Source: a virus
Lineage: Duplodnaviria; Heunggongvirae; Uroviricota; Caudoviricetes
Length of the DNA stretch: 64,000 nt
Reading direction: 5' to 3' (one strand)
Virus record (IMG/VR): IMGVR_UViG_3300028591_000093
Location: 16,765 to 80,764 of that record
The notes under the pieces are model-generated. The model searched no databases and was not told the DNA's origin. It saw only the letters and a program-made list of their open reading frames with translations. The position numbers were made by a program, and so were the translations under genes. Positions 21,735 to 63,612 of this stretch are shown piece by piece. Within the stretch, counting starts at the first letter, position 1; every line of letters begins with the position of its first letter.

Positions 21735-21804
21735 AGTATATTAGCTCAGTTGGTAGAGCACTACAGAGATGTAGCGGTCGGAGGTTCAAGTCCTTCATAT
21801 ACTC
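21735..21804 (+). ncRNA. tRNA-like RNA with canonical acceptor, D- and T-arms but a truncated anticodon arm (5-bp stem, 4-nt loop); pseudo-tRNA or Y-RNA-like
   Basis: AGTATAT/ATATACT acceptor, GCTC-AGTTGGTA-GAGC, CTACA-GAGA-TGTAG, GGAGG-TTCAAGT-CCTTC. Only 70 nt long. Confidence 0.45.
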
Positions 21805-21888
21805 CTTTGGTGAGAGTGGGGTTAGACTCACAAACAAAACAGATATGTGCTCACAGAATCTATATTACTAAAAAGTATATAAACTACA

Positions 21889-30081: not shown

Positions 30082-30219
30082 GGGGAGATGGTGAAATTTT
30101 TGAACAACCTCTTATGTATTTCTTCCTGAAAGGGATTGTCAACATGAGAGTTACTTCTATGGTTATACACGCTTTTTATTGGAAAAAAGATTCTCCTGGT
30201 TCGAGTCCAGGTCTCCCCA
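30082..30219 (+). ncRNA. 138-nt tRNA-like RNA: perfect 7-bp acceptor GGGGAGA/TCTCCCC with discriminator A and canonical T-arm, but about 107 nt in place of the D and anticodon arms (Y-RNA-like or tRNA with a large insertion)
   Basis: CCTGG-TTCGAGT-CCAGG T-arm. Internal 8-bp helix CTCTTATG/CATGAGAG. Contains a copy of the GGATTGTCA-N7-AGTTACTTC motif. D-region lacks GG. Confidence 0.45.
30132..30156 (+). promoter_or_regulatory. copy of the conserved motif GG(T/A)TGTCA-N6-7-(G/A)GTTACTTC
   Basis: One of four copies. This one lies inside the tRNA-like element. Confidence 0.3.
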
Positions 30220-32974: not shown

Positions 32975-33017
32975 GTGAGGAAGCATACCATAAGAACTGC
33001 TCCTCACTCTTTCTCTC
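32975..33017 (+). terminator. hairpin GTGAGGAAGCA...TGCTCCTCAC followed by T/C-rich run
   Basis: Downstream of the flotillin gene stop. Confidence 0.35.
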
Positions 33018-33018
33018 T

Positions 33019-33092: not shown

Positions 33093-33109
33093 CATAAAAC
33101 AAAAACAAT

Positions 33110-33331: not shown

Positions 33332-33332
33332 T

Positions 33333-33980
33333 ATGGGATGTCATACATGGTTTTATGTTTATCTTGAACAAAAACAAAAGGAATTAAAGGAAGAATATTT
33401 TAACAGAATAGTAGATGGTGCTAGATTACTGTTAAAATTATATAAAGAAACAACTGAAGAGGAATGGAATAAAGATTTTACATCTTATGAAAAGGATGAT
33501 AATAGAGCTTATTGGAAAGATAAGACTTATCCTGAATGTAAATCTTTATCAGAACTTAAAGGTTGGTCTGATAAGAGTATACTTGAAGAAATCAAGCTTG
33601 CACAAACAAAAACTTGGCAAGAGTATAGAGATTTCTTCATTGGTTTAAACTCTTTACTTGTTGAAAGTCTTGAAACAAATTGTCATTGTCTAGAAGATGT
33701 AGCAAATTTGTTACCTGAACAATTGCATAGTGTAACGGGTCTTAAATATAAGAATGGTAAAGTTTACATAGATGCTAGTTCAGAAATTGCTGATAAATAT
33801 CTATCTAGAAGAATATGTGACATCTTTAGAATACATGATTATAGTGCAAAACCTTGCTACAGTGTAGCAGATTGTGTACAAAGATGTAAAGAACATAATG
33901 TTATTCTAAAAGATGAAGAGTTTCAAGAATTAAAAGAATGGTACCAGGAATATCCTGATACTATGATTACTTTTGGTTAA
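33333..33980 (+). CDS. hypothetical protein (about 215 aa, Cys-containing)
   Basis: Internal ATG of ORF 33276-33980, placed just after the stop of the upstream gene. Confidence 0.4.
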   Translation: MGCHTWFYVYLEQKQKELKEEYFNRIVDGARLLLKLYKETTEEEWNKDFTSYEKDDNRAYWKDKTYPECKSLSELKGWSDKSILEEIKLAQTKTWQEYRDFFIGLNSLLVESLETNCHCLEDVANLLPEQLHSVTGLKYKNGKVYIDASSEIADKYLSRRICDIFRIHDYSAKPCYSVADCVQRCKEHNVILKDEEFQELKEWYQEYPDTMITFG

Positions 33981-33988
33981 TCTAAGGA

Positions 33989-34013
33989 GGGTTGTCACAG
34001 AGAGGGTTACTTC
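33989..34013 (+). promoter_or_regulatory. conserved motif GGTTGTCA-CAGAGAG-GGTTACTTC abutting the tRNA-Thr 5' end
   Basis: Motif copy. The tRNA position 1 follows directly. Confidence 0.35.
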
Positions 34014-34087
34014 GTTTTATTAGCTCATTTGGTAGAGCACAAAAATTGGTAATTTTGGGGTACCTTGTTCAACTCAAGGATGAAACT
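34014..34087 (+). tRNA. tRNA-Thr(GGT)
   Basis: Acceptor GTTTTAT/ATGAAAC, D-arm GCTC-ATTTGGTA-GAGC, anticodon loop region ATTGGTAA, T-arm CCTTG-TTCAACT-CAAGG. Confidence 0.65.
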
Positions 34088-34132
34088 TTTATATCCCTTT
34101 CTACCTCTCTCCCTCCTTTTTACTATAAAGCA

Positions 34133-34156
34133 GGTTGTCAAATATGGAGTTACTTC
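34133..34156 (+). promoter_or_regulatory. conserved motif GGTTGTCA-AATATG-GAGTTACTTC overlapping the tRNA-Arg(CCT) 5' end
   Basis: Motif copy. Confidence 0.35.
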
Positions 34157-34226
34157 TTTTAGCTCAGCTGGATAGAGCATTTGCCTCCTAAGCAAAGTGT
34201 CGGTGGTTCAATTCCACTAAAGAAAT
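34153..34226 (+). tRNA. tRNA-Arg(CCT)
   Basis: D-arm GCTC-AGCTGGATA-GAGC, anticodon arm TTTGC-CTCCTAA-GCAAA, T-arm GGTGG-TTCAATT-CCACT. First acceptor pair is mismatched. Confidence 0.65.
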
Positions 34227-34267
34227 CCTTAAACACTCTATATTATTTCTCCTGCTTTTCCCATAGG

Positions 34268-34290
34268 GGATGTCAGTGTAAAGTTACTTC
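34268..34290 (+). promoter_or_regulatory. conserved motif GGATGTCA-GTGTAA-AGTTACTTC, about 108 nt upstream of the tmRNA
   Basis: Motif copy. Confidence 0.3.
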
Positions 34291-34397
34291 TATAATTAGC
34301 GTCATGGTTTGCCAATAACTGAAAAATACTTTGCTCTTTTTCTCCCCTTTTTACAATAGGAGAGGGTGGAGTTAATACCTCATCCTCTTTCTTATTA

Positions 34398-34771
34398 GGG
34401 CCTATTTGGTTTTGACAGCATTATATGATTAATGGGAACATGCAAAGAGAGTACTGCTCTAAATTACGGTACAAAAAATAAATGCTAGCAGAAGAAGACC
34501 TGTTAGATTGGTTGCCTAAGCTTAGGCTTACTTAACTGTAAACTAGCTTATTATGGCATAACCTGGGTAATTATACCTGGAAACAGAAAATAATTGACAT
34601 TGTGGAAAGACACATTTAACTTTCTTCAAAGTATAAATGAAGTGGTGGAGTGGCTAGTTGCCAAACCAATTAGCCCCTGTGGGTAAAGTAACCACATTAA
34701 AAAGAACTAAGCATGTAAAGTTTCCTATTAGTTGATATTGTTGGACCTGGGTTCGACTCCCAGTAGGTCCA
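34398..34771 (+). ncRNA. ssrA: tmRNA (SsrA), about 374 nt. Predicted tag reading frame GCT AGC AGA AGA AGA CCT GTT AGA TTG GTT GCC TAA, giving (A)SRRRPVRLVA
   Basis: 5' GGGCCTA pairs with 3' TAGGTCC plus discriminator A next to the T-arm CTGGG-TTCGACT-CCCAG. The segment AACTAAGCATGTA matches the conserved E. coli tmRNA segment CUAAGCAUGUAG. Resume codon lies at nt 87, preceded by AAAAAATAAAT as in E. coli AAAAAAUAGUC. Confidence 0.6.
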
Positions 34772-35307
34772 CTGGTCCTTGAGGTTTTTGTTTCTCTGTT
34801 AGTTTTTCTACGATTTTTCCTAGCAGAGTTTTTGTTTTTCCTCAAGAGTAGGTCTCTCCATCCCTATATAAAAAAGATGGTATCTATATAGACATAAGTC
34901 CACAATTAAGGAGGTCATTGTAGTGATACAGAATAGGCAAAAGCTATTTGTCAGAGAGCCTTGCTCACTAGGTTAAGACAAACTACATAATAAGCTAGAA
35001 TAAAAGTATGGAGACTCAGAGCACCTAGTATGGCAGTCTATAACCATAGGTATTTATATACTTTATTTTACTGTGTTTGGGCAAACACTTGAAACGGCAT
35101 CCTAGTTTGGAGGTTTAAAAGTTAAAACCTTCTGCGAGCATAGGCATCCCTTCACTGGGAAAGTTATGCTCAACATCTGGTGTTAAGTAGCACCTAAAAT
35201 ATACTTCTTATGTGATTCAATGGTTAATATTGTGTTTTTGTTTGCGCGGTGACTCTAGGCAAGATGGGTTGTGAAACTAGTCTTGCCACCTTCTTTTTCT
35301 AAAGTTT

Positions 35308-36519
35308 ATGAAAAATGTAAAAATATATGCAAAAACAGTTGAAGATGAGGCAATGTTACAAATTCAAAACATGTCTTTATCTGATGCTTATGGAGAATGT
35401 CCTGTAAGAATAATGCCTGATTGTCATGCAGGTGCAGGATGTACAATTGGTACTGTAATAGGTATTAAAGATAGAGTTGTACCTAATACAGTTGGAGTAG
35501 ATATAGGATGTGGAATGTTGGTTGTTCCTTTAGGTAATATTGAGATTGATTTAGCAGCTCTAGATAATTTCATTAAAACTGAAATACCTTCTGGATTCAA
35601 TATCAATGAACAGTTTCTTGGTAAAAGTTTTTATCATCCTAGTACACTTACTCAATTTAAATGTCAAGAAGTTATAGATGCTGATATGGCTTTAAAGTCT
35701 ATTGGTAGTCTTGGAGGAGGTAATCATTTTATTGAAGTTGATATAAATGAAAATGATGAAAAATTTCTTGTAATTCATACTGGTAGTAGAAATCTTGGTG
35801 TAAGAGTATGTAAGTATTATCAAGAAAAAGCTATAAAGAGTTGTAAAGCAAAGAGAACTGATTTTATAGAAATTATTAACAGTCTTAAAGAACAAGGAAG
35901 ACAGTCTGAAATCAATGCTACTCTTGCACAAATTAAAGCAACTCAATCACCTTTCAATGCTGAATTGGCATATCTTGAAGGTAAAGACCTTGAGGATTAT
36001 CTTAATGATATGAGATTATGTCAAGGATATGCTTCTTGTAATAGAAGAGCAATTGCTATTAGAATTCTTGATTTCTTAGGACTTTCTAATCTTCTTTCTG
36101 ATTTCTTAGAAGGACATGATAAATCTTTTACAACTATTCATAATTATATTGATTTACCACATAAGATTCTTAGAAAAGGTGCTGTGAGTGCACTTAATGG
36201 AGAAAAGCTTATTATTCCTATTAACATGAGAGATGGTTCTCTTATCTGTATAGGTAAAGGTAATCTTGATTGGTTGTATTCTGCACCTCATGGAGCAGGT
36301 AGACTTATGTCTAGAAAGAAAGCAAAAGAAAGTCTTAAAGAAGAGGACTTTATTGAAGCAATGAAAGGTATTTATACAACTACAGCAACTAAAGATACTA
36401 TTGATGAAGCACCTATGGTATATAAACCGATGGATGAAATCATGGAGTGTATCAAAGATACTGTAGATGTTGTAGATATTATTAAACCTATATATAATTT
36501 TAAAGCAGCAGAGCAATGA
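35308..36519 (+). CDS. rtcB: RtcB-family RNA 3'-phosphate/2',3'-cyclic phosphate ligase
   Basis: 403 aa. RIMPDCHAGAGCTIG and VGVDIGCGM match the RtcB metal-binding motifs. Confidence 0.75.
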   Translation: MKNVKIYAKTVEDEAMLQIQNMSLSDAYGECPVRIMPDCHAGAGCTIGTVIGIKDRVVPNTVGVDIGCGMLVVPLGNIEIDLAALDNFIKTEIPSGFNINEQFLGKSFYHPSTLTQFKCQEVIDADMALKSIGSLGGGNHFIEVDINENDEKFLVIHTGSRNLGVRVCKYYQEKAIKSCKAKRTDFIEIINSLKEQGRQSEINATLAQIKATQSPFNAELAYLEGKDLEDYLNDMRLCQGYASCNRRAIAIRILDFLGLSNLLSDFLEGHDKSFTTIHNYIDLPHKILRKGAVSALNGEKLIIPINMRDGSLICIGKGNLDWLYSAPHGAGRLMSRKKAKESLKEEDFIEAMKGIYTTTATKDTIDEAPMVYKPMDEIMECIKDTVDVVDIIKPIYNFKAAEQ

Positions 36520-36968
36520 TAAATAATCAAATTGATAAACTTATCATGGAGGCTATGAAGTCTCATGAGAATGTAAGAAAAGAGGCTTTAAGAGCAATTA
36601 AAGCTGCTTTCTTATTATGGAGAACTCAGAAAGAAAATGTTAATAAACCATTTACTGATGAAGTAGAAATTCAAATCATCAAGAAAATGGTAAAACAAAG
36701 AGAGGATTCTATTGAGCAATTTAAACAGGCTAATAGAATGGATTTAGTTGAGGCAGAAGAAGCACAACTTAAAGTTCTTAAAGAGTTTTTACCAGTAGAA
36801 GCAACTAGGGAAGACATTTTGAAATGTTTCAATGATGTAATTGGACAAGATGGTTTTGAGCCTGTAAAGAAGAACATGGGTGTCATTATCAAAACAATAA
36901 AAGGTTCACTTCCTAATGCTGATGGCAAATTAGTTGCAGAAGTTGTACAAGAATTTTTAAACAAATGA
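36516..36968 (+). CDS. GatB/YqeY-domain protein
   Basis: 150 aa. NVRKEALRAIKAAFLL and overall size and pattern match YqeY. ATGA overlap with rtcB. Confidence 0.5.
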   Translation: MINNQIDKLIMEAMKSHENVRKEALRAIKAAFLLWRTQKENVNKPFTDEVEIQIIKKMVKQREDSIEQFKQANRMDLVEAEEAQLKVLKEFLPVEATREDILKCFNDVIGQDGFEPVKKNMGVIIKTIKGSLPNADGKLVAEVVQEFLNK

Positions 36969-37561: not shown

Positions 37562-38001
37562 TTACATTCATTATACCTATTCAAAGTATATCTGACATAA
37601 TAACCAATAGTTCATCTGAACTCTTTGTAGCATTTGCAAATCCTGAACAAGAATTTACTAGTACTATTGTTGCTAAGAAATTACAGGAAATTTGGGATAA
37701 TGATGATAAAAAGAGAGAGGAGCTTTGGAACCAATACTGTAGTAGAGGTAAAAATAACTGGGATAAATATGATGAAGCTTTATACAAGTTAGGACTTGAT
37801 GAGTCTTCAGGTGATGCAGCAGAATGTGAAGTCACTACACTTTCTTATAAAGATATTGCTCATGATGTTAAAAGACATTTCAGGGGTAATGTTGATAAGA
37901 AAAATGGTTTGTTCTTACAAATTAGAATTGACCATAATAGAAGACATTCAATTGATTGGATTAGAAATAATCTGTCTGTTGTATCTAGTTACAGTTGTTA
38001 A
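37558..38001 (+). CDS. hypothetical protein, paralog of 36965-37561
   Basis: Starts MITFIIPIQSISDIITNSSSELFVAF. ATGA overlap. Confidence 0.4.
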   Translation: MITFIIPIQSISDIITNSSSELFVAFANPEQEFTSTIVAKKLQEIWDNDDKKREELWNQYCSRGKNNWDKYDEALYKLGLDESSGDAAECEVTTLSYKDIAHDVKRHFRGNVDKKNGLFLQIRIDHNRRHSIDWIRNNLSVVSSYSC

Positions 38002-38894
38002 TTATGAAAGATTTTACTCACTTTGGTATTAAACAGAGGAATTTTTCAGAATATAACTATAATGCTATATGGCAAAATCTAAAAACAGTAAGATTAGGAC
38101 AAGGAGTAGCTCAAGAGTTACCACCTATCTGTTCTGAGTTTTATGATGTAAGTCTTGGTACTAAGTGTAATCTAGAATGTCCTTTCTGTTATACTAATGC
38201 ATTACATACAGGTGTATTCTATAAGGATGTATGTGAGAAAGCAAAAAAGTTCTTTGGAGAGATGGATGAAAATTCCAAACCTTTTCAAATAGCAATAGGG
38301 AGTGAAGGTGAGCCAACAATTCATCCTGAATTCATTCCTTTCTTACAAACTATATATAACTTAGGAATAGTACCTAACTACACTACCAATGGTATAACTC
38401 TAGCTTCTGAAGACAATAAAGAATTGTTGGAAGCAACAGAGAAGTACTGTGGTGGTGTAGCTGTAAGTGCAAACACTTGGAATGAAAATATCAATAAGAC
38501 TTGGAAGAAAGCTGTTGATAATTTAAAAGGTATAGACATTAACATTAACATTCATTACATAATTTCAGATAAAGCTTCTGTTGACAAATTTGTCAGTGAA
38601 GTATATCCATATGTAAATGATATATTGTATTTTGTTCTATTACCACTTATGCCTTCTGGTAGAAGTGTTTGCAAATATACACAAGAAGAATTTGAGTATT
38701 TGTTAAGTAAAAATTTAAATTGGTCTAAAATAGCTTTTGGAGCACATTTCTATGACTTACTTAAACAACAAAATAAAATCAAATGCTGGTTGTATCCTCC
38801 TGAGAGTTTCTCAAAGAATTTAATTTTGGGAAATCCTATAAAAATAACAAAAAGTTCTTTTCACAAAGAGCCAATCTGGCAAAAAGATGTATGA
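37995..38894 (+). CDS. radical SAM enzyme (299 aa)
   Basis: CNLECPFC gives the Cx3Cx2C cluster motif. GSEGEPTIHPEF...TTNGITL is the SAM-binding glycine-rich motif. Confidence 0.55.
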   Translation: MLIMKDFTHFGIKQRNFSEYNYNAIWQNLKTVRLGQGVAQELPPICSEFYDVSLGTKCNLECPFCYTNALHTGVFYKDVCEKAKKFFGEMDENSKPFQIAIGSEGEPTIHPEFIPFLQTIYNLGIVPNYTTNGITLASEDNKELLEATEKYCGGVAVSANTWNENINKTWKKAVDNLKGIDININIHYIISDKASVDKFVSEVYPYVNDILYFVLLPLMPSGRSVCKYTQEEFEYLLSKNLNWSKIAFGAHFYDLLKQQNKIKCWLYPPESFSKNLILGNPIKITKSSFHKEPIWQKDV

Positions 38895-39551: not shown

Positions 39552-40397
39552 ATGAAATATAGGTTTTTAGCTAAAGAAACAACTGAAGCTCTTATAAAGT
39601 ATTTACAATCTTGGTTTGAACAAAATGGACCAGGATGTAATGCTGTAATAGGTATATCAGGAGGTAAAGACTCTACTATTGCAGCAGCACTCTGTGTAAA
39701 AGCTTTAGGTGCTGAAAGAGTCATAGGTGTATTGTTGCCAAATGGTGTTCAACATGATTTCAATATAGCACAGAAAGTGTGTGAAACTCTTGGAATCAAG
39801 AACCTGTCTATTCCTATTGGGACTATCTTTGAAGAATTCCAGGATAGATATAAGATGGCAAATGTACACAATACTCTTAATGAAGTAACTGAGCAAGCAA
39901 GAATTAACTTAGCTCCTAGAATTAGGATGACTATGTTAAGATATGTAGCACAAGCAAATAATGGCAGATTGATTAACACTTCTAACTTATCTGAAGACTG
40001 GGTTGGTTATGCAACTGTTGATGGAGATAGTGCAGGAGATGTATCACCATTATGTATGCTTACTGTACAAGAAGTAAAAGCTATTGGACATGAACTTGGA
40101 CTTCCTGCTGAACTTGTTGAGAAAGTTCCTGAAGATGGACTTGTTGGTACATCTGATGAACAAACACTTGGAATCACTTACAAAGATATAGACACCTATA
40201 TCAGAGAAGGTGAAGGAAGTGCTGAAGTAATTGAAAAGATTAACAAAAAGTTTGAAGCAAACAAGTTCAAGATTTATAGAATGGCAAGTATGCCTTGCTT
40301 CTGGCCTGAAATTGAAATGTTGTTTGACTTAACTGAAAAGCCTACCAATGTAGAGATAATGTCTCTAGGTATGGCTAAAGACCCAAGATTCCAATGA
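39552..40397 (+). CDS. nadE: NH3-dependent NAD+ synthetase
   Basis: 281 aa. VIGISGGKDSTIAAAL gives the PP-loop SGGxDS. Overall NadE pattern. Confidence 0.7.
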   Translation: MKYRFLAKETTEALIKYLQSWFEQNGPGCNAVIGISGGKDSTIAAALCVKALGAERVIGVLLPNGVQHDFNIAQKVCETLGIKNLSIPIGTIFEEFQDRYKMANVHNTLNEVTEQARINLAPRIRMTMLRYVAQANNGRLINTSNLSEDWVGYATVDGDSAGDVSPLCMLTVQEVKAIGHELGLPAELVEKVPEDGLVGTSDEQTLGITYKDIDTYIREGEGSAEVIEKINKKFEANKFKIYRMASMPCFWPEIEMLFDLTEKPTNVEIMSLGMAKDPRFQ

Positions 40398-40945
40398 GAA
40401 AGGTTCTTATTTTGATTGATTGTCAAAATGATTTCTGTGCACAAGGTGGTGTTTTGGCAAATAAAGAGTCTATTGCAATTGCAAAAGACATTGCTAAAAC
40501 ATTACCTGAGCTTATTTCTGAAAAAGGTTTTGACTATATTCTTGCTACAAGAGATACTCATTATAGGCAATCTTATGATGTCACAGTAGAAGGTAAACAT
40601 TTACCTGTTTTACATTGTATATGTGAAACTGCTGGTTGGTGTCTAAGAGATGATATTATGGAAGCTCTTGACAATTGTCAAGTTCCTAAAAAGTTTATAA
40701 ACAAACATACATTTGGTTATAACAATTGGGAACAAATAATTGGTTCAGATAAGTCAGAAATAAGAGAGTTCTATTTAGTAGGATTCTGTACTGATATTTG
40801 TGTTGTTACCAATGCTCTTGTTCTCAAGACATTATACCCTAATTCAGAAGTGTATGTCTATGAAGGACTGACAGCAGGTGTAACTCCTGAAAAGAAAGAG
40901 GCAGCTATTGAGACAATGAGAAGCTGCCACATAAACATTATTTGA
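40394..40945 (+). CDS. pncA: nicotinamidase/pyrazinamidase (isochorismatase fold)
   Basis: LILIDCQNDF (Asp), GFCTDICV (catalytic Cys), 183 aa. ATGA overlap with nadE. Confidence 0.65.
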   Translation: MRKVLILIDCQNDFCAQGGVLANKESIAIAKDIAKTLPELISEKGFDYILATRDTHYRQSYDVTVEGKHLPVLHCICETAGWCLRDDIMEALDNCQVPKKFINKHTFGYNNWEQIIGSDKSEIREFYLVGFCTDICVVTNALVLKTLYPNSEVYVYEGLTAGVTPEKKEAAIETMRSCHINII

Positions 40946-41020
40946 TATGGACAATATTGTTGAGATGGCAAGTTTTATTGCAGGTGTAACAGTTGGTTTC
41001 GCTTCAATGTTTCTTTTCTT

Positions 41021-41230
41021 ATGAGTGAAAATGCTAAAACAAATATAACTATAAGTTTCAATCTTCCACTTATTTTAACAATTGCTTTCTTTATTGCTAA
41101 GGTGACAGAGAAAATTGATTGGAATTGGTGGTGGGTATTTAGTCCTTTGTGGATTACTGGAACTTTAGTTGTTTTAATGTTTATAATCTACATAATTATT
41201 CAATGCTTTTCGTCAACAAAATACCTGTAA
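41021..41230 (+). CDS. small membrane protein (69 aa)
   Basis: ORF track. Two TM helices. Confidence 0.35.
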   Translation: MSENAKTNITISFNLPLILTIAFFIAKVTEKIDWNWWWVFSPLWITGTLVVLMFIIYIIIQCFSSTKYL

Positions 41231-42033
41231 AGGTAGAACATTTCCAGGATGGTACTCAAAAGATAAATATGCCAGATTTTGGTGTAAATGCTTTTCATAT
41301 AGTATGGAAGTATCATTGTGATGAAGAATTAGTCACATTGATATTTGTTTGTGGTTATCTCAGAGATAATTATCAAGACTGTACTATATCTCTGGAAATG
41401 TTGTATGTTCCTAATGCTAGAATGGACAGAGTAGAAGAAAGAGGAGATGTCTTTACCCTTAAGTATTTCTGCAATGTTATTAACAGTTTACAGTTTGAAA
41501 GTGTAACAGTTTTTGATACTCATTCAAAAGTAACTGATGCTCTAGTTGATAGGATGTGTAAAATACCAACTGATGTATCATTGAAAGAAGCCCTTGATGT
41601 TATACATAGTGGGATGTTTGATGATAAATTCAGTAAGGTTACAATTGTATTTCCTGATAGAGGTGCTTATGATAGATACAGTTCTCTTGAAATCTTAAAG
41701 CCTTTTAGAAAGGTAATAGGAAACAAATCAAGAGACTGGAAAACTGGCACTTTGCAAGACCAGGAGCTATATGGAGTAGATACATTGGAGACAGGTATTC
41801 CTGTTCTGATTATTGATGACATATTATCCTCAGGTGGTACCATCTGTAAGACTATTGCAAATATCAGGGAAAAAGTGAATTGTCCAATTTATGTATATGC
41901 TTCCCACTGTGAGAATAAACTTATAGAAGATAATACAGAGAATTGGCAATACATTCTAAGTAATGTAACAAAATTGTTTACAACAAATGGGATATATTCT
42001 CATGAAATTGAAAAGGTTGTGATATTATGGTAG
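41203..42033 (+). CDS. prs: ribose-phosphate pyrophosphokinase (PRPP synthetase)
   Basis: FQDGTQKINM, YVPNARMDRVEERG (compare Prs YARQDRK), VFDTHS (compare DLHA) and PRPP-binding VLIIDDILSSGGTICK. Start taken at the internal ATG 41203. Confidence 0.6.
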   Translation: MLFVNKIPVKVEHFQDGTQKINMPDFGVNAFHIVWKYHCDEELVTLIFVCGYLRDNYQDCTISLEMLYVPNARMDRVEERGDVFTLKYFCNVINSLQFESVTVFDTHSKVTDALVDRMCKIPTDVSLKEALDVIHSGMFDDKFSKVTIVFPDRGAYDRYSSLEILKPFRKVIGNKSRDWKTGTLQDQELYGVDTLETGIPVLIIDDILSSGGTICKTIANIREKVNCPIYVYASHCENKLIEDNTENWQYILSNVTKLFTTNGIYSHEIEKVVILW

Positions 42034-43208
42034 CAATAAACCCTGCAAGTATGTTGGATAATGACCTCTATAAGTTTAGCATGAGCTATGCTTATATGAA
42101 GTTATTTCCTGAAGCAGAGGGTACATTTGTTTTCTGTGATAGAGGTAAAACAGAGTATACTGCTAAATTTGTAACCGCTTTGCAACAAGAGTTACATAGA
42201 CTGGCAGAAAGAATGTTGTCTAATGCAGAGAGACAATGGTGTGTACAAAACATACCATACATTCCTGAGTGGTATTGGGAATGGTTAGAGTCTTTCTATT
42301 TTAATCCAAACTTAATTAAACTTTCCCTTGAGAAAGATGGTGAGTTGAAGATTGAAGTTACAGATAAACTTTATAAAGTTACTCTGTATGAGGTACCTAT
42401 TCTCTATACAGTTGCAGAAACATACTATAAAATCTATGGTAAATCTCTAACTGTTGACCAGTATCAAGAGATATGTAGAAAAACTGAAGAGAAATGTAAG
42501 ATTGCTGAAGAAGCAGGATTTAAATTCTCTGAGTTTGGTACCAGAAGAAGATATAGTTATGAAGTACAAGATACAGTTGTAGCTGTTTGTAAGAACTCTA
42601 CATCCTGCGTCGGTACTTCAAATGTACATCTTGCAATGAAATATGACATGAAACCTATTGGAACTGTAGCACATGAATGGGTAATGTTTCATGGTGCTAT
42701 GTATGGTTACAATGAGGCTAACTACATGGCATATAAAAACTGGGTAAAGGTTTATGATGGCAATCTTGGTATTGCTTTAACTGATACCTATACTTCTAAA
42801 GTCTTTTTCAAGAATTTTTCTTTACAACATGCAAAATTGTTTGATGGTATAAGACAAGATTCTGGAGATGAGAAAGACTTTGTTGAGAGAGCACTAGTTA
42901 GATATGATGAGTTAGGTATCAACCCACTCACAAAAACTATAGTGTTCTCTAATGCTTTGGATTTTCCAAAAGCTGCTCAAATTGCTGAATACTGTAAAGG
43001 AAAGATAAAAGCTTCCTTTGGTATAGGCACTAATCTTACCAATGATATTGAAGGTGTACAGCCTAGAAATATTGTCATGAAGTTAATGCATTGCAGAATG
43101 AACCCAAGACAAGAATGGGTAAATTGTGTAAAGATTTCTGATGACATTGGTAAAGTAATGGGAGCAGATGAGGAAGTAAAAACTGCTATTTATAAATTAG
43201 GTCTATGA
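42027..43208 (+). CDS. pncB: nicotinate phosphoribosyltransferase
   Basis: 393 aa. N-terminal LDNDLYKFSM and EFGTRRR signature of PncB. Confidence 0.65.
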   Translation: MVAINPASMLDNDLYKFSMSYAYMKLFPEAEGTFVFCDRGKTEYTAKFVTALQQELHRLAERMLSNAERQWCVQNIPYIPEWYWEWLESFYFNPNLIKLSLEKDGELKIEVTDKLYKVTLYEVPILYTVAETYYKIYGKSLTVDQYQEICRKTEEKCKIAEEAGFKFSEFGTRRRYSYEVQDTVVAVCKNSTSCVGTSNVHLAMKYDMKPIGTVAHEWVMFHGAMYGYNEANYMAYKNWVKVYDGNLGIALTDTYTSKVFFKNFSLQHAKLFDGIRQDSGDEKDFVERALVRYDELGINPLTKTIVFSNALDFPKAAQIAEYCKGKIKASFGIGTNLTNDIEGVQPRNIVMKLMHCRMNPRQEWVNCVKISDDIGKVMGADEEVKTAIYKLGL

Positions 43209-43681
43209 GAAATTTTCCAGTAGAACATGAAGGAAAAACCTACTGGATAAGTAGGTCTGTAGCAGTTGCAGGTTTCATCTTCACCAAAGATAGTCAAGGA
43301 AATTGGTTAGTTCTTGCAAATAAGAGAGGACCAGGTTGTCCTGATAATGTTGGTAAATGGGTTTGTCCTTGTGGATACCTAGATTATGATGAAACCCTCA
43401 AAACAGCTATTATAAGAGAAGTTTATGAGGAAACAGGAGTTCTTGTACCTGCTGATAAACTTCAATTTGCAGGTATAGATGATGTACCTGAAGGTAGACA
43501 AAACTTAACAGTAAAATTTACTGCATATCTTGGTTCTGATTCACCTGCTGTGAAGATGTTATCTAAAGAGCATTGTGAACCAGATGAGGTAGATGAAGTT
43601 ATGTGGATACCAGTAGCTAAAGCAGGTGAGTATGATTGGGCTTTTGGACATTATGAACTAATTAGGAGTTTTGTACCATGA
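43205..43681 (+). CDS. Nudix hydrolase (ADP-ribose/NADH pyrophosphatase-like)
   Basis: Nudix box GYLDYDETLKTAIIREVYEETGV. ATGA overlap. Confidence 0.65.
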   Translation: MRNFPVEHEGKTYWISRSVAVAGFIFTKDSQGNWLVLANKRGPGCPDNVGKWVCPCGYLDYDETLKTAIIREVYEETGVLVPADKLQFAGIDDVPEGRQNLTVKFTAYLGSDSPAVKMLSKEHCEPDEVDEVMWIPVAKAGEYDWAFGHYELIRSFVP

Positions 43682-44265
43682 ACCCAAAAGTAGCTCATCT
43701 ATTTCTTACAGACAAGTGCACTAATCAGTGTCCTATGTGCTGTAACAACAACTACACTGTAGACAGTATTCCTTTTATAACAAAAGAGGAGTTGTCTACA
43801 GTGGAAACTGTTTGTTTAACAGGTGGTGAACCTTTTCTTCTAGATAATCTTTATGGGATTGTAAATGTAATAAGTTCTTTTGCTAAGAATATCTATGTTT
43901 ATACTTCAGGTTATGAGTTACTCTATTACTTGAAAAAACATACCTTACCTTGTATAACTGGAATTTCCATTTGTCCAAAAGGTAAAAAAGATTGGGATGC
44001 ATTACAAGAACTTATACACAATACAAGAGCTAGATTGAGGATTTCAGAATGTAGTAATAGACTATATGTTCTTTTAAAACAAGAAGATAGAGCTAACTAT
44101 GTTACTGAAACTGATATTAGTTTGAGGGCAATTGAACATTTTGCTGAAGAGTTAAATGCTAAGATATTGTTCAGAACTTGGCTTCCTGAAATTACATCTC
44201 CAGATGGAGAGATATTTAGAAGAGTTAATTTAGAGGATTTAAAACAATGGAAATCAGAACTATAA
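43678..44265 (+). CDS. small radical SAM protein (QueE/NrdG-size)
   Basis: CTNQCPMC Cx3Cx2C motif and LTGGEPFL SAM motif. 195 aa. ATGA overlap. Confidence 0.5.
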   Translation: MNPKVAHLFLTDKCTNQCPMCCNNNYTVDSIPFITKEELSTVETVCLTGGEPFLLDNLYGIVNVISSFAKNIYVYTSGYELLYYLKKHTLPCITGISICPKGKKDWDALQELIHNTRARLRISECSNRLYVLLKQEDRANYVTETDISLRAIEHFAEELNAKILFRTWLPEITSPDGEIFRRVNLEDLKQWKSEL

Positions 44266-44879
44266 GAGGAAGAGCTGTCTTATATGGAGGTTCTTTCAAT
44301 CCTATACATAATGGACATATAGAAGCAATACAAATGCTCTTAGATAGAAGAGATACCAATGGTATGTACTATTATAATAAGGTAATTGTAGCTCCAAGCT
44401 TTGCAAGTCCTTTTAAGGAGTTTAATGTGTGTTTTGCAGACAGATTTGAAATGGCTGCAACTTCTATAAAAAGAGTAATAGGAGATGAAAGAGTAGAAGT
44501 CATCTTTGATAGTAATGCATCGCCATTATTTCAATATACTTACTATTTCCTAAAGCATCTATCTCTTAAGTATTCTGATTATTCCATTGATTTAGCTATA
44601 GGTGCAGATTGTCTTGCACAAATAACTAAATGGGCATGTTTTAAAGACATACTTTATCAGTTTGATATTGTAGTAATACCTAGAGAAGGAGTTGAAATGA
44701 AAGTTCCTGAGGGATTAACTCTAGCTAGAAGTATTACTAAAATGTCAGAAATTCCTTCTAATATAAGTTCAACCTATATCAGACAATGTATTGATGAGTG
44801 TAATCCAGAATGGAAAACACTTGTTCCTAAATATGTTGCTGATTATATTCAAAAACATCATCTATATGACTGTAGTTAA
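44247..44879 (+). CDS. nadD: nicotinate-nucleotide adenylyltransferase
   Basis: YGGSFNPIHNGH (HxGH nucleotidyltransferase motif) and C-terminal ISSTYIR (NadD ISSTxIR motif). 210 aa. Confidence 0.7.
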   Translation: MEIRTIRGRAVLYGGSFNPIHNGHIEAIQMLLDRRDTNGMYYYNKVIVAPSFASPFKEFNVCFADRFEMAATSIKRVIGDERVEVIFDSNASPLFQYTYYFLKHLSLKYSDYSIDLAIGADCLAQITKWACFKDILYQFDIVVIPREGVEMKVPEGLTLARSITKMSEIPSNISSTYIRQCIDECNPEWKTLVPKYVADYIQKHHLYDCS

Positions 44880-60103: not shown

Positions 60104-60595
60104 ATGAAAGGTGCTGATTTATTAACTGCAAAAAGAATAGGAGAATTCCTTAAAAGTAAGTCCTGGACTATAGCAACAGCTGAATCTTGTACGGCAGGAG
60201 GTATATCTAATGCTTTAGCAAGAGTTGAAGGAGCTTCCCAATATCTCAAAGGTGGTGTTGTGTCCTATACTAATGAGATTAAAGAGAAAATCTTATGGGT
60301 AAATCCTAAAACAATTGAGAATTTTGATGTTGTTAGTCTTGAAGTAGCTCAAGAAATGGCTAGTTCAATTAGAAACCTTTACAATACAGATGTAGGAGTT
60401 GGAATTACAGGGTATGTAGGTCAAACTGGTGGTAATAGTAAGGTTCCTAATGGTACAGTTTGGATTAGTGTTAAATGTGAAGGTATTCAGAATACAGTTA
60501 GATGTAGTGTATGTAATTCCAGAAATGAAAACATAGATGAAATGATAGGAACTGCATTGAACTTAATTCTGGAAACACTTGAGTGTACTAACTAA
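60104..60595 (+). CDS. pncC: CinA C-terminal domain protein, NMN deamidase
   Basis: TIATAESCTAGGISNALARVEGASQYLKGGVVSYTNEIKEKIL matches the CinA/PncC core (ATAESCTGG...pGsS...gGvVaYsneaK). 163 aa. Confidence 0.6.
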   Translation: MKGADLLTAKRIGEFLKSKSWTIATAESCTAGGISNALARVEGASQYLKGGVVSYTNEIKEKILWVNPKTIENFDVVSLEVAQEMASSIRNLYNTDVGVGITGYVGQTGGNSKVPNGTVWISVKCEGIQNTVRCSVCNSRNENIDEMIGTALNLILETLECTN

Positions 60596-61995: not shown

Positions 61996-63612
61996 ATGTC
62001 AAGATTTAGCAAAATGAATGTAGGAGTTCTTGCTACTACTAAAGTACAAGCTCCTAACACTGTTAATAGACAAGGACATGCTGCTTATGCATTAGGAGAT
62101 GAGTTAAAACTTTTATCAGCACTGAATGTTCTCAAGTTAGAACAACAGTACTATAGAGGTGTTAACCAACAAATGCTAGAAGTTATTGAACTTGTTGAAA
62201 AAGTGGCAAGGAAAGACCCTTATTTGGCTGCACAATGTATTGTGTATTCTAGATGGGAGGGAGAAGGTTTAAGAAGTGTAAATCATTTAGCAGCAGCCGC
62301 ATTGGCTGATTACATTGCTGGAAGAGAATGGGCTAAGAGATTTTACAGTTCTTATGATAAAAAGAACAAGAGAGGTGGATGTATATGTAGACCTGATGAT
62401 ATGTCTGAGATTAAGATGATTTATTTCGCTATGAATGCTCCTCATAAACTCAGTATGGCAATGAAGAAAGGTTTCAAGAACTATATTGAAGCATTGTCAC
62501 CATATCAGATGTTTAAATATAAAAAGCCTGTTATTGATATATCTAACTTAGTACATCCAAATCCTAATGTTACAGAAGACATTGAGGCTGAAGGTAGAAG
62601 AGTTAAGTCATTAACTGCTCTCATGACTGGTATGCATGTTGCTGCTAATACATGGGAGACTAGACAGTCTGCTGCTGGACAAGAAATAGCAGAACAAGTA
62701 AAAAGAGGTGAAATATCTGCACAAGAGGCTGAGTTGGCTCTTGACCAGGCTAAGAGTGAAAACTGGAATGACATGTTGATGAACAATCAACTTGGTATTC
62801 TTGCTGCTCTTAGAAACATAAGAAACATTCTCAAGACTGCTAACATCAATTCTATCAAGAAACTTTGTGGAATGTTAGAAGATGCTAAAAGAATCAGAGA
62901 AGGTAATATTATGCCACAACAGATAGATGTAGCCTATGACATTGTTATGGATGAATTTGCAAGTACTCAGACTGGTAAATTGATAGCTGCTTCCTTGATA
63001 AAAGGATATGAACTGTCTACTACTAATCTTGGTCCTGCATTGCCAGGTAGAAATTTGGTTATCTTAGATTGCTCAGGCTCTATGGGTTGGAGTAATGTAT
63101 ATGACCTTAGAAAGAAATCTGCTGGTAGAAATACAGTTCTGGATAAAGCATCACTTGTAGCTGCTACTATTTTAAAAGCAACTGGTGGTGATTTAATTGT
63201 ATTTGGTAGTGGTGCAAGAGAAGGTACCTATAATCCTATGCAAAATGTATTTGAGATTGCAAGAAGTCTCAGAAATACCAGCATGGGTGGTACTAACTTA
63301 GCTTCTGCTTTTGATTTAGTAGCTAAGAATTGGAACAATATCAAGTATAACAGAATTTTCATTCTTTCTGACAATGAATGCAATCAGGGTAGTAATGTAC
63401 AAGCTTATAAGAGATTACTGTCTAAATGTAGTGCAGATGAAATGCCTTACATTTACTCAGTAGATATGGCTGCATATGGTACTACTCCTATTAAACATGA
63501 TGGTAGAGTTAACTACTATTATGGCTTTGGATATGCAATGTTTGATGATGTAGCTAAACTGGAGTTCAATCCACAAGCTCACATTGAAAAAGTTAAACAG
63601 ATTGTCATTTAA
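61996..63612 (+). CDS. rsr: Ro60-like ribonucleoprotein (TROVE domain plus C-terminal vWA domain)
   Basis: 538 aa. N-terminal NRQGHAAYALGDELKLLSAL...YYRGVN...DPYLAAQCIVYSRWEGE fits the TROVE pattern. C-terminal LVILDCSGSM gives the vWA MIDAS DxSxS motif. Confidence 0.6.
   Translation: MSRFSKMNVGVLATTKVQAPNTVNRQGHAAYALGDELKLLSALNVLKLEQQYYRGVNQQMLEVIELVEKVARKDPYLAAQCIVYSRWEGEGLRSVNHLAAAALADYIAGREWAKRFYSSYDKKNKRGGCICRPDDMSEIKMIYFAMNAPHKLSMAMKKGFKNYIEALSPYQMFKYKKPVIDISNLVHPNPNVTEDIEAEGRRVKSLTALMTGMHVAANTWETRQSAAGQEIAEQVKRGEISAQEAELALDQAKSENWNDMLMNNQLGILAALRNIRNILKTANINSIKKLCGMLEDAKRIREGNIMPQQIDVAYDIVMDEFASTQTGKLIAASLIKGYELSTTNLGPALPGRNLVILDCSGSMGWSNVYDLRKKSAGRNTVLDKASLVAATILKATGGDLIVFGSGAREGTYNPMQNVFEIARSLRNTSMGGTNLASAFDLVAKNWNNIKYNRIFILSDNECNQGSNVQAYKRLLSKCSADEMPYIYSVDMAAYGTTPIKHDGRVNYYYGFGYAMFDDVAKLEFNPQAHIEKVKQIVI

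What the first reader, a model, noticed from the sequence alone, without database searches (positions are those of the whole stretch)
61996..63612. Ro60/TROVE-vWA protein in a phage that also encodes RtcB and aberrant tRNA-like RNAs (candidate Y RNAs)
Ro60 orthologues (Rsr) bind Y RNAs, which have a tRNA-mimicking module. In bacteria rsr is classically co-regulated with rtcB. This window has rsr, rtcB (35308-36519) and two tRNA-like RNAs. These RNAs keep perfect acceptor and T-arms but lack a functional anticodon arm (21735-21804 and 30082-30219), as expected for YrlA-type Y RNAs. Inference: the phage carries an Ro60-Y RNA RNP plus an RNA ligase, perhaps to process or repair its numerous tRNAs or to counter host tRNA-targeting defences.
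Basis: partly seen in the sequence, partly recalled or inferred. Interest (0 to 1): 0.75.

Follow-up and report, generated by a model that had tools for sequence, protein, structure and literature searches.

The report
Phage Ro60 with tRNA-embedding Y-like RNAs
A large gut phage encodes a true but very divergent Ro60 RNA-binding ring protein, an RtcB RNA ligase, and a conserved RNA stem module wrapped around tRNAs and tRNA look-alikes; in related phages this module clusters tightly around the Ro60 gene, so it is probably the Ro60 partner ("Y") RNA.

Summary
ORF 61996-63612 is a Ro60/TROVE+vWA protein: all 13 top Foldseek hits are Ro60 structures, it matches PHROG 850, and the MIDAS motif is intact. 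ORF 35308-36519 is RtcB (Pfam, 213 bits). Both tRNA-like elements exist. No element in the window matches Rfam YrlA, even at E<=10, and YrlA has the opposite topology (acceptor closed, ends at the anticodon side).

Element 21735-21805 is a tRNA with a 4-nt GAGA anticodon loop. It carries no Ro60-linked feature and is absent at the same position in two relatives.

Element 30082-30219 does carry a lineage-specific stem module: P1, bulged U, 2 bp, internal loop, P2, then GUUACUUC. The same module flanks two tRNAs (33986-34116, 34128-34257) and a short RNA (34266-34347) just upstream of the tmRNA and rtcB. In relatives:
- Module density falls about 15-fold between 0.5 kb and 3-5 kb from Ro60, while tRNA density stays flat.
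- The module is always on the Ro60 strand.
- A motif-only database scan recovers Ro60 in 29 of 56 stretches.
- Rfam YrlA gives sub-threshold hits (E 6e-5 to 0.03) to one payload class.

rtcB is never within 5 kb of Ro60. Phage Ro60 with YrlA, and jumbo-phage RtcB with TROVE, are already published. The multi-copy module that encloses tRNAs appears to be a new variant.

The parts
61996..63612 (+). Ro60 / TROVE + vWA(MIDAS) RNA-binding protein, 538 aa, PHROG 850
30082..30219 (+). Element b, a 138-nt tRNA-like RNA. It has an open 7-bp acceptor, a class-II-like D region, a variable-arm hairpin and a T arm. A closed hairpin at 30109-30151 replaces the anticodon arm. That hairpin carries the conserved module: P2 CTCTTATG/CATGAGAG, 3' loop TATTTCT, P1 TTCC/GGGA, then U-UG-UCAA, followed by GTTACTTC.
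   Evidence: The ortholog in L269 shows compensatory changes in the acceptor, P2 and variable arm.
33986..34116 (+). Cassette unit A. P1 is GGAGGG/CCCTCC, the 5' loop is TTGTCAC, P2 is AGAGAGGG/CCCTTTCT, and GTTACTTC follows. The payload is a tRNA at 34014-34087 (ARAGORN Thr-GGT; Rfam tRNA 48 bits).
   Evidence: (z -3.1)
34128..34257 (+). Cassette unit B. P1 is AAGCAGG/CCTGCTT, the 5' loop is TTGTCAAA, and P2 is TATGGAGT/ACTCTATA. The payload is tRNA-Arg(CCT) at 34153-34228, whose acceptor 5' strand overlaps the conserved UACUUC.
   Evidence: (z -3.8)
34266..34347 (+). Cassette unit C, an 82-nt minimal Y-like RNA. P1 is GGGGA/TCCCC, followed by a bulged U, a G-C pair, the loop UCAG, and P2 GTAAAGT/ACTTTGC. 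The payload is a conserved 37-nt sequence, and a U-run follows P1.
   Evidence: CM R1 16.3 bits, E 0.47; z -2.6
34398..34774 (+). tmRNA with tag ASRRRPVRLVA*, immediately downstream of the three cassettes
35308..36519 (+). RtcB RNA ligase
36516..36968 (+). YqeY/GatB-like protein overlapping the rtcB stop. Homologues lie in four Ro60 loci of relatives.
21735..21805 (+). Element a, a tRNA-like RNA with normal acceptor, D and T arms and an anticodon stem closed by a GAGA tetraloop. It has no cassette module, and no link to Ro60 is shown.

Best explanation
The ORF is a phage Ro60: a TROVE HEAT-repeat ring plus a vWA/MIDAS domain. In this jumbo-phage lineage its partner RNAs are most likely a multi-copy family of Y-like 'cassette' RNAs, not canonical YrlA.

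Each cassette is a long stem made of the two ends of the RNA. It consists of P1 (5-9 bp), a conserved bulged U, 2 bp (RG/CY), an asymmetric internal loop (5' YRA-N, 3' ...AUUUU) and P2 (6-8 bp, ending G-U/A-C). The invariant UACUUC(G) follows directly and begins the payload.

The payload varies:
- a ~20-40 nt loop;
- a circularly permuted tRNA-like domain (T arm, closed acceptor, D arm), which is what Rfam YrlA detects;
- an unpermuted tRNA-like cloverleaf whose anticodon varies freely between orthologs;
- a bona fide tRNA.

The window holds three tandem cassettes (33986-34347) upstream of the tmRNA and rtcB, plus element b (30082-30219). In element b the same module is closed by a pentaloop and sits where the anticodon arm of a tRNA shell would be.

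Inferred mechanism (not shown): Ro60 binds the bulged-U helix and internal loop on its outer surface, as Ro60 binds the bulged helix of Y RNAs. The resulting RNPs would present tRNA or tRNA-mimic domains. Their role could be to chaperone, quality-control or end-mature phage tRNA precursors, or to act as decoys or sensors for host tRNA-targeting nucleases. RtcB, encoded separately, would reseal cleaved tRNAs.

Shown here: protein identity, RNA structure with covariation, and the genomic linkage of the module to Ro60 in relatives. Inferred: binding and function.
For: Ro60 identity.

The module is a real RNA structure:
- Across 66 cassettes, 94.8% of cells are paired, and the covariation score is 0.76 against 0.20 in shuffles (0 of 500 shuffles reach it). 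This includes pairs that were not used for selection.
- In an unbiased motif-only test, the reverse complement of the P1 7-mer (skipping the bulged U) lies downstream in 86 of 123 instances, against 4.8 expected.
- A structural scan finds 142 hits on the Ro60 strand and 11 on the other strand in 731 kb.

Linkage to Ro60:
- Motif density is 1.1-1.8 per kb within 500 nt of Ro60, 0.29 at 1-2 kb and 0.10 at 3-5 kb, with none on the opposite strand. tRNA density is flat at 0.7-1.6 per kb.
- Loci without any tRNA (L084-L087, L064/L067) still carry 2-4 cassettes just upstream of Ro60.
- A reverse search of IMG/VR with the RNA motif alone gave 56 stretches. Of these, 29 encode Ro60, all 29 on the same strand and mostly less than 1.3 kb away.
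- The 634-kb phage LR745206 has two motifs 400-500 nt upstream of its Ro60.

Relation to YrlA:
- Rfam RF02553 gives full-length hits to the T-AS-D cassettes flanking Ro60, at 29-39 bits and E 6e-5 to 0.03.
- As a positive control, the model finds YrlA next to Ro60 in Gordonia and Streptomyces phages.
- blastn of these units hits the unannotated region just upstream of Ro60 in Xanthomonas phages.

Window copies:
- TTGTCA-N8-GTTACTTC occurs three times and ATGTCA-N8-GTTACTTC once, all on the + strand. About 2e-4 exact matches would be expected per strand; this figure is my own arithmetic (64,000/4^14), not a tool result. A looser form of the pattern gave 0.49 hits per strand in shuffles.
- The folds have z-scores of -2.6 to -3.8.
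- In L269, a relative whose neighbouring protein is 85% identical, every helix of units A-C and of element b is kept through compensatory changes.
- The payload of unit A is most similar to cassette payloads of relatives (0.71-0.80 identity against a median of 0.54).
Against: - No binding or expression data exist.
- In the window the cassettes lie 28-32 kb from Ro60, not within about 1 kb as in relatives. The only nearby candidate (about 63960-64035, running off the window end) folds poorly (z -0.8).
- A covariance model built from relatives' cassettes does not score the window copies significantly (best 16.3 bits, E 0.47). The window variant reads UUGUCA where relatives read UAGYAA.
- All Rfam YrlA hits in relatives are below the gathering score (69 bits). 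They rest on the T/AS/D core, not on the stem.
- The published YrlA Ro60-site motif GNCGAAN0-1G is not present.
- Cassettes also enclose apparently functional tRNAs, which fits a processing signal equally well.
- About half of the motif-first loci show no Ro60 in the stretch returned, though many of these are short or cut.
Confidence: 0.55

Rival explanations
1. The module is a Ro60-independent punctuation or processing signal for the phage tRNA operons. It could be a leader-trailer duplex with an internal loop cut by RNase III or a phage endonuclease, or a promoter-terminator pair. Ro60 would then act on other, misfolded RNAs, with or without an unidentified Y RNA.
For: The cassettes enclose tRNAs that score as real: Rfam tRNA 48 and 58 bits in the window, and 30 of 142 payloads in relatives are called tRNA by ARAGORN. 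In the window P1 is followed by U-runs. The stem / internal loop / stem design resembles phage RNase III sites (my own knowledge). The window cassettes are far from Ro60.
Against: Cassette density falls more than 10-fold with distance from Ro60 while tRNA density stays flat. Cassettes flank Ro60 in loci that have no tRNAs. Motif-first searching retrieves Ro60 in 29 of 56 stretches, always on the same strand. Many cassettes carry only about 20-40 nt and so have nothing to process out.
Confidence: 0.25
2. The cassettes mark split or permuted tRNA genes and a tRNA 'intron' (element b). An endonuclease would cut at the module and RtcB would join the ends, by analogy with archaeal and algal permuted tRNAs with BHB motifs. 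The products would be functional tRNAs or circular RNAs.
For: The T-AS-D payloads keep an anticodon-arm-like hairpin with a 7-nt loop, with U33 in 20 of 30 and A37 in 25 of 30. They also have 7-bp acceptor stems followed by a discriminator-like base. Element b looks like a class-II tRNA with an insertion at the anticodon. The phage encodes RtcB.
Against: RtcB is not within 5 kb of Ro60 or the cassette arrays in 78 relatives. The permutation break lies at position 26/27, not in the anticodon loop. Removing the element b hairpin does not leave an obvious 7-nt anticodon loop (my own reading of the sequence). Orthologous cassette 'tRNAs' change anticodon freely. No splicing endonuclease was found.
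Confidence: 0.1
3. Elements a, b and c are decaying tRNA pseudogenes with no function. The Ro60 gene is an isolated accessory gene with no dedicated partner RNA in this phage.
For: Rfam finds no Y RNA or YrlA in the window or in the 2.8 kb beyond it. Element a is not conserved at the same position in two relatives. Element c has no recognisable core.
Against: Element b keeps perfect acceptor and T arms. It shows compensatory changes in three helices, and its loop motifs are invariant in a relative whose neighbouring protein is 85% identical. Pseudogenes would not covary.
Confidence: 0.1

Closest known systems
Rsr (bacterial Ro60) with YrlA Y RNA (Salmonella, M. smegmatis, mycobacteriophages; Chen et al. 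2014, PMC4201824; Rfam RF02553)
   Same: Both have a Ro60 homologue with partner-candidate RNAs encoded on the same strand within a few kb. In both, the RNA combines a terminal stem with a tRNA-like domain. One cassette class has the YrlA order (T arm, closed acceptor, D arm) and is hit by RF02553. The 7-bp acceptor with a discriminator recalls M. smegmatis YrlA, which is cut by RNase P and receives CCA.
   Different: All scores are below Rfam gathering. The stem has its own conserved motifs (bulged U, UAGYAA or UUGUCA, GUUACUUCG, AUUUUCU) in place of GNCGAAN0-1G. The permuted units keep an extra anticodon-arm hairpin. There are many copies per genome. Payloads include true tRNAs and unpermuted cloverleaves. 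In the window no T-AS-D unit exists, and element b has the inverse topology: acceptor open, module closed.
Ro60 of Thermus phage phiLo (PDB 9L5Y/9KOP) and other phage 'Ro-like RNA binding proteins' (PHROG 850)
   Same: This is the best structural and sequence match (Foldseek E 1.5e-13, phmmer 8e-9). It is a phage-encoded TROVE+vWA protein.
   Different: Identity is only about 20%. The RNA partners of phiLo Ro60 were not examined here.
Salmonella rsr-yrlBA-rtcBA RNA repair operon
   Same: Ro60, tRNA-like RNAs and RtcB occur in one genome. RtcB sits next to tRNA-related genes (tmRNA, cassettes, YqeY).
   Different: There is no operon. rtcB is 25.5 kb from Ro60 and is never within 5 kb of it in 78 relatives. 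No RtcA or RtcR was seen.
Jumbo-phage RNA repair repertoire (Iyer et al. 2021, PMC7824862)
   Same: That paper already notes that a subset of jumbo phages combine many tRNAs, RtcB and a ROT/TROVE protein.
   Different: In the passages I read, it names a tRNA-like partner only for cellular organisms. It describes no phage partner RNA or cassette architecture.
Permuted or split tRNA genes with BHB motifs ligated by RtcB (archaea, Cyanidioschyzon)
   Same: Both involve circularly permuted tRNA sequence whose ends pair in a conserved helix, in a genome that also encodes RtcB.
   Different: The module is not a bulge-helix-bulge. The break lies at 26/27. No endonuclease was found. Anticodons are unconstrained.

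Membership tests
Ro60 / Rsr (TROVE + vWA) | TROVE HEAT-repeat ring fold | tested here: met
   The top 13 Foldseek hits are all Ro60 structures, aligned full length. Profile against PDB: 9l5y 3.7e-14, 1yvp 1.7e-9. Pfam TROVE gives only E 5.9e-4, below gathering.
Ro60 / Rsr (TROVE + vWA) | C-terminal vWA domain with MIDAS motif DxSxS...T...D | tested here: met
   VWA_2 E 2.9e-5. D358, S360, S362, T433 and D459 are invariant in 23 homologues. Homologues carry PF25045 vWA_Ro60.
Ro60 / Rsr (TROVE + vWA) | NCBIfam Rsr equivalog score (orthology to bacterial Rsr) | tested here: not met
   24.4 bits against a 900-bit cut-off. The protein is a distant phage branch, not an Rsr equivalog.
Ro60 / Rsr (TROVE + vWA) | Binds Y RNA or misfolded RNA | not testable with these tools
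   Needs RIP/EMSA.
YrlA Y RNA (RF02553) | Covariance-model match at gathering score (69 bits) | tested here: not met
   No hit at E<=10 in the window, in L001, or in a focused scan of 29900-35400. Relatives reach 29-39 bits.
YrlA Y RNA (RF02553) | Topology: ends paired at the anticodon side, then T arm, closed acceptor-like stem, D arm | tested here: not met
   Window elements a and b have open acceptor ends. A T-arm scan finds no T-AS-D unit in the window. The topology is met in 33 units of relatives.
YrlA Y RNA (RF02553) | Encoded within about 4 kb of Ro60 on the same strand | tested here: not met
   Window elements lie 28-40 kb upstream, though on the same strand. The criterion is met for cassettes in relatives.
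YrlA Y RNA (RF02553) | GNCGAAN0-1G motif in the 5' strand of the Ro60-binding stem | tested here: not met
   The lineage motif is U-(A/G/U)G-(Y)(R/C)A. A few relatives read AGCGAAAG, which matches 7 of 8 positions.
RtcB RNA ligase | Pfam PF01139 above gathering | tested here: met
   212.6 bits against 27, covering 13-425 of 426 model positions.
rsr-rtcB repair operon | rsr and rtcB adjacent or co-transcribed | tested here: not met
   The genes are 25.5 kb apart. tblastn finds no RtcB within 5 kb of Ro60 in 78 loci.
tRNA (element a) | Cloverleaf with a 7-nt anticodon loop | tested here: not met
   Rfam tRNA scores 53 bits, but the loop is GAGA (4 nt). ARAGORN calls it tRNA-??? with a 2-base anticodon.
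Ro60-linked cassette module (defined here) | P1, bulged U, 2 bp, internal loop, P2, UACUUC, with covariation | tested here: met
   The architecture is present in window units A-C and, permuted, in element b. Compensatory changes occur against L269.
Ro60-linked cassette module (defined here) | Significant score with the covariance model built from relatives (R1) | tested here: inconclusive
   Unit C scores 16.3 bits, E 0.47, within noise. The model is short (59 positions) and the window variant differs in the 5' loop.

The most novel reading that the evidence does not exclude
The Ro60-binding stem of Y RNAs has been recruited in these phages as a leader-trailer module on bona fide tRNA precursors, permuted tRNAs and anticodon-hypervariable tRNA mimics. 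Ro60 would then be a dedicated phage factor that chaperones, matures or shields the phage's own tRNA pool, or deploys tRNA decoys, against host anticodon nucleases. That would give Ro60/Y RNPs a concrete substrate class for the first time.
Probability: 0.25. Interest if true: 0.8.

Novelty: new variant of a known kind. Interest (0 to 1): 0.6.

Why it matters
What bacterial and phage Ro60/Y RNA particles act on is still unclear. This lineage offers an unusually explicit clue. The candidate Ro60-binding stem is physically fused to tRNAs, to permuted tRNA-like domains and to tRNA mimics whose anticodons change between close relatives. The RNAs occur in arrays of 2-9 copies around the Ro60 gene in many uncultured jumbo phages.

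If Ro60 binds these RNAs, three things follow:
- Ro60 is tied directly to tRNA biology in the phage-host arms race over tRNA cleavage.
- There is a sequence-defined, mutable binding module for biochemistry.
- Many 'aberrant tRNAs' in phage genome annotations are explained.

If Ro60 does not bind them, the module is still an undescribed, strongly covarying RNA processing element of phage tRNA operons.

Tried and rejected
- Rfam at gathering and at E<=10 found no Y_RNA or YrlA. Searched: the whole window, L001/L002, and a focused 5.5-kb region.
- The search for related loci with the single protein found nothing. An alignment was needed.
- A viral-contig scan with the window-type motif TTGTCA-N8-GTTACTTC (14 specified bases) returned only single hits that look like chance matches. 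It was uninformative.
- Covariance model R1, built from relatives, did not separate the window cassettes from noise.
- The candidate minimal unit next to Ro60 (L001 3030-3135, about window 63931-64036) has the TAGCAA...GATACTTG motif but no convincing P1, with z -0.8. I did not count it.
- Sigma-70 promoter and terminator scans around the cassettes were not above shuffle background.
- PADLOC gave no defence-system match for Ro60, RtcB or their neighbours.
- Contigs carrying the exact neighbouring protein were 100% identical to the window, so they gave no covariation. L269, found through a protein 85% identical, solved this.
- I considered integron attC-like DNA hairpins. I rejected them because of G-U pairs, strict co-orientation with the tRNAs, and register with the acceptor stems.
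- I considered self-cleaving ribozymes flanking the payloads. No Rfam ribozyme family matched.
- Stop-codon recoding: the standard code fits this window.
Full report
OBSERVATION.

The ORF at 61996-63612 (+) is real and encodes 538 aa. Single-sequence HMMs barely recognise it. Pfam VWA_2 gives E 2.9e-5 and TROVE E 5.9e-4, both under gathering. The NCBIfam Rsr equivalog scores 24 bits against a 900-bit cut-off.

Other evidence shows it is a Ro60:
- phmmer against PDB sequences aligns residues 26-463 to 'TROVE domain-containing protein' 9kop/9l5y at E 8e-9.
- A profile of 23 homologues hits 9l5y (3.7e-14), Xenopus Ro 1yvp (1.7e-9), human Ro60 and D. radiodurans Rsr.
- An AlphaFold2 model (mean pLDDT 73) retrieves Ro60 structures as its 13 best Foldseek hits, all aligned over the full length. 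These include Ro60 of Thermus phage phiLo at 1.5e-13 and Rsr 2nvo at 5e-11.
- PHROG 850 'RNA-binding protein' matches at 4.5e-30.
- The MIDAS residues D358-x-S360-x-S362, T433 and D459 are invariant in the family.

RtcB at 35308-36519 is unambiguous (Pfam, 212.6 bits). The window is phage DNA. It has a large terminase at 100-1722(-), 23-24 tRNAs and a tmRNA, and GC of 34%. Identical sequence sits on a 169-kb metagenomic contig.

THE TWO NAMED RNAs.

Element a (21735-21805) is a tRNA by Rfam (53 bits) with normal acceptor, D and T arms. Its anticodon stem is closed by GAGA, and ARAGORN reports tRNA-???. It has no other special feature. In two relatives whose downstream gene is about 60% identical, no tRNA-like gene occupies that position.

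Element b (30082-30219) has a perfect 7-bp acceptor and a perfect T arm around a 113-nt core that neither ARAGORN nor Rfam accepts.

So both descriptions are accurate, but the phrase 'as expected for YrlA' is not. YrlA runs: 5' stem strand, T arm, closed acceptor-like hairpin, D arm, 3' stem strand. That is the opposite of an RNA with open acceptor ends. No YrlA or Y_RNA match exists anywhere in the window at E<=10, nor in the 2.8 kb beyond its end. The Rfam model does work on phages. It finds YrlA directly upstream of Ro60 in Gordonia phage Neville (E 9e-7) and Streptomyces phage GiJojo (E 0.007).

WHAT RELATIVES SHOW.

The protein has more than 2000 homologues in metagenomes, mostly about 50% identical and often on contigs of 100-500 kb. 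I fetched 78 loci from IMG/VR. In them Ro60 sits inside same-strand tRNA arrays.

Scanning for T arms outside called tRNAs revealed a recurrent motif upstream of them..U(A/G)G(C/U)(A/G)A, then about 8 nt, then GUUACUUCG. The motif belongs to a structured cassette with these parts, in order:
- P1, 5-9 bp, formed with a distal 3' segment;
- a bulged U;
- 2 bp (AG/CU or GG/CC, which covary);
- an internal loop (5' YRA-N, 3' ..AUUUU);
- P2, 6-8 bp, ending G-U/A-C;
- the invariant UACUUC that starts the payload.

The support is statistical:
- On 66 cassettes, 94.8% of cells pair. The covariation score is 0.76 against 0.20 in shuffles and 0.10-0.19 for slid partners. This includes pairs that played no part in selecting the set.
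- In 123 instances chosen on the 5' sequence alone, the reverse complement of the 7 P1 bases (skipping the bulged U) lies downstream in 86, against 4.8 expected.
- A structural scan gives 142 hits on the Ro60 strand and 11 on the other strand in 731 kb.

LINK TO Ro60.

Motif density is 1.1-1.8 per kb within 500 nt of the Ro60 gene. It falls to 0.61 at 0.5-1 kb, 0.29 at 1-2 kb, 0.23 at 2-3 kb and 0.10 at 3-5 kb, with none on the opposite strand. tRNA density is flat. Loci with no tRNA at all still have 2-4 cassettes directly upstream of Ro60.

In the reverse direction, I scanned IMG/VR with GTAGTAA-N7-GTTACTTCG alone. This returned 56 stretches. Of these, 29 contain a Ro60 homologue, all 29 on the motif's strand and mostly within 1.3 kb. 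Many of the rest are short or cut. The closest GenBank relative, the 634-kb phage LR745206, has two motifs 400-500 nt upstream of its Ro60.

PAYLOADS.

Four classes occur.
1. About 20-45 nt only, giving Y-RNA-sized hairpins of 60-95 nt, often at +50 to +100 after the Ro60 stop.
2. T arm, closed 6-8-bp acceptor, D arm (33 distinct units). Rfam YrlA aligns to these full length at 29-39 bits, E 6e-5 to 0.03, at -300 to +730 from Ro60. blastn links them to the unannotated DNA just upstream of Ro60 in Xanthomonas phages. Unlike YrlA, they keep an anticodon-arm-like hairpin (7-nt loop, mostly U33 and A37, covarying stem).
3. Unpermuted cloverleaves whose acceptor 5' strand is the conserved UACUUCU. 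Their 'anticodon' differs between orthologs (UAA, AUC, UUG, UUU, GCA, UUA, UCA, UAG) while the rest is conserved.
4. tRNAs that look functional.

THE WINDOW.

The window variant of the 5' loop is UUGUCA or AUGUCA. TGTCA-N8-GTTACTTC occurs four times, all on the + strand. A looser form of the pattern gave 0.49 hits per strand in shuffles.

Three copies are tandem cassettes:
- A, 33986-34116, with a tRNA payload at 34014-34087;
- B, 34128-34257, with tRNA-Arg CCU as payload;
- C, 34266-34347, with a 37-nt payload.

All three lie immediately before the tmRNA (34398-34774) and 1 kb before rtcB. Their minimum-energy folds reproduce P1, loop and P2, with z-scores of -3.1, -3.8 and -2.6.

The fourth copy lies inside element b, where the module is circularly permuted. 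The order is P2 3'-strand equivalent (CTCTTATG), UAUUUCU, P1 (TTCC), loop UGAAA, P1 (GGGA), U-UG-UCAA, P2 (CATGAGAG), then UUACUUC. It therefore forms a closed arm where the anticodon arm of a class-II-like tRNA shell would be.

L269, a gut-metagenome relative whose flotillin-like neighbour is 85% identical, carries orthologs of all four. Every helix is maintained through changes:
- Element b acceptor: GGGGAGA/TCTCCCC becomes GGGGGAG/CTCCCCC.
- Element b P2: a T-A pair becomes C-G.
- Element b variable arm: CTTTTT/AAAAAG becomes CAAAA/TTTTG.
- Unit A P1: GGAGGG/CCCTCC becomes GGAAGG/CCTTCC.
- The P2 helices of units A, B and C are entirely different sequences that still pair.

The loop motifs (ATTGTCAA, GTTACTTC, TTTCT) are invariant. 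The anticodons of the payload tRNAs differ (GGU against GAU; CCU against CUU). The payload of unit A is most similar, among 677 tRNAs in relatives, to cassette payloads regardless of anticodon.

There are caveats. A covariance model built from relatives does not score the window copies above noise. The cassettes are 28-32 kb from Ro60 here. The only motif-like sequence next to Ro60 is unconvincing.

RtcB.

RtcB is followed by a YqeY/GatB-like gene and an NAD-salvage block. tblastn finds no RtcB within 5 kb of Ro60 in any of the 78 loci, though YqeY homologues occur in four of them. The classical rsr-rtcB operon linkage therefore does not apply. The two genes share only a genome and a tRNA theme.

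INTERPRETATION.

The best-supported reading is that this phage lineage has Ro60 plus a diversified family of Y-like RNAs, whose common stem is the probable Ro60 site. The design (bulged helix plus internal loop) is the same as the Ro60 site of Y RNAs; that comparison rests on my own knowledge of 1YVP. The variable end presents tRNA or tRNA-mimic domains. Binding and function are inferred.

The main rival is that the module is a processing or punctuation signal of tRNA operons, unrelated to Ro60. This is weakened by the distance decay, by the loci without tRNAs and by the motif-first search, but it is not excluded.

A permuted-tRNA or intron splicing model with RtcB is attractive, but it lacks an endonuclease and any linkage to RtcB.

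KNOWN OR NEW.

Phage Ro60 with YrlA was reported in 22 phages (PMC4201824). Jumbo-phage RtcB with ROT/TROVE was noted in PMC7824862. A phage Ro60 structure is in the PDB. Three features were not found in the literature I could search: the multi-copy module, its use around true tRNAs and anticodon-variable mimics, and the inverse-topology element b. I rate this as a new variant of a known kind, with interest 0.6.

Noticed in passing
The insertion follows CUU and ends in G before AAAAUCUAG, which is the classical position and boundary pattern of the tRNA-Leu(UAA) group I intron. Rfam Intron_gpI did not match at E<=10. The 5' exon is preceded by UAGCUGGUAAGUUAC, a variant of the cassette 5' motif.
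   Followed up: partly
window 8972-9066 (-): A third aberrant tRNA-like element lies between tRNA-Cys and tRNA-Pro. It has a perfect acceptor (GGGAAGA/TCTTCCC, then A) and a T arm (GGGGG TTCAAGT CCCTC), but a 62-nt core that neither ARAGORN nor Rfam accepts. It contains UGUAAAACUUACCUG, which resembles the UGUAAAGUUACUUC of unit C.
   Followed up: partly
window 13872-13959 (-): An 88-nt tRNA with anticodon CUA (amber-suppressor type; ARAGORN calls it 'Pyl'). TAG ends only 7 of 98 long frames, but the standard code fits this window. Relatives also carry UUA and CUA suppressor-type tRNAs.
   Followed up: partly
relatives, e.g. L013 6725-6797, L014 5512-5583, L012 4036-4107, L020 6887-6959; L269 6250-6320 against window 34014-34087: Orthologous cassette-embedded cloverleaves keep their D, T and acceptor sequences but change the anticodon freely (UAA, AUC, UUG, UUU, GCA, UUA, UCA; GGU against GAU; CCU against CUU). 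This suggests tRNA mimics or rapidly retargeted tRNAs.
   Followed up: partly
window 39552-44879 and 60104-60595: An NAD+ synthesis and salvage gene set: NAD synthase, isochorismatase/nicotinamidase-like, PRTase-like, NAPRTase, NMNAT-like cytidylyltransferase, and CinA/PncC. It may counter NAD-depleting host defences.
   Followed up: no
window 34775-35307 and 24170-25740: Two ORF-poor stretches: 533 nt upstream of rtcB, and about 1.5 kb before tRNA-Met. Neither has an Rfam match. The second contains a possible minimal cassette at 24803-24865 (GGCAAUU, AGUCAAGA, UACUUC ... UCUUGACA) with a weak P1.
   Followed up: partly
window 34398-34774; L002 3751-4164; L272 255-615: The phage encodes a tmRNA. 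Relatives of 287-325 kb encode SmpB near Ro60, and another relative has a tmRNA with a different tag.
   Followed up: no
L002 11740-11870 (also L003-L005): In 287-325-kb relatives whose Ro60 is 51% identical, the cassette motif is absent. Instead a ~60-nt bulged hairpin (UCUCAAGAGUUAUCCAG...CUGGGAUUAGGAGAGA) followed by an intrinsic terminator lies 100-200 nt after the Ro60 stop. It may be a different Y RNA.
   Followed up: no
L010 5835-5908, L024 4504-4578, L053 4051-4127: tRNAs with 8-nt anticodon loops (four-base 'anticodons' UUAG, UUGG, UUCA). Two of them lie inside cassettes. They may be frameshift-suppressor-like or mimic RNAs.
   Followed up: no
L037 ~2150-2330: The only relative found with an element-b-like closed module hairpin (ACUGUUCA, AGCAUU, CUCU, CGAA, AGAG, UAGUAAU, AGAAUAGU, UACUUC). 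It is flanked by GGGGGAG...CUCCCCC-A and lies 2.8 kb upstream of Ro60.
   Followed up: partly
window 4250-5707 (-), 31068-32948 (+), 37995-38894 (+): Phage-encoded Cpn60/GroEL-like chaperonin, a 626-aa SPFH/flotillin-like protein, and a radical SAM protein.
   Followed up: no
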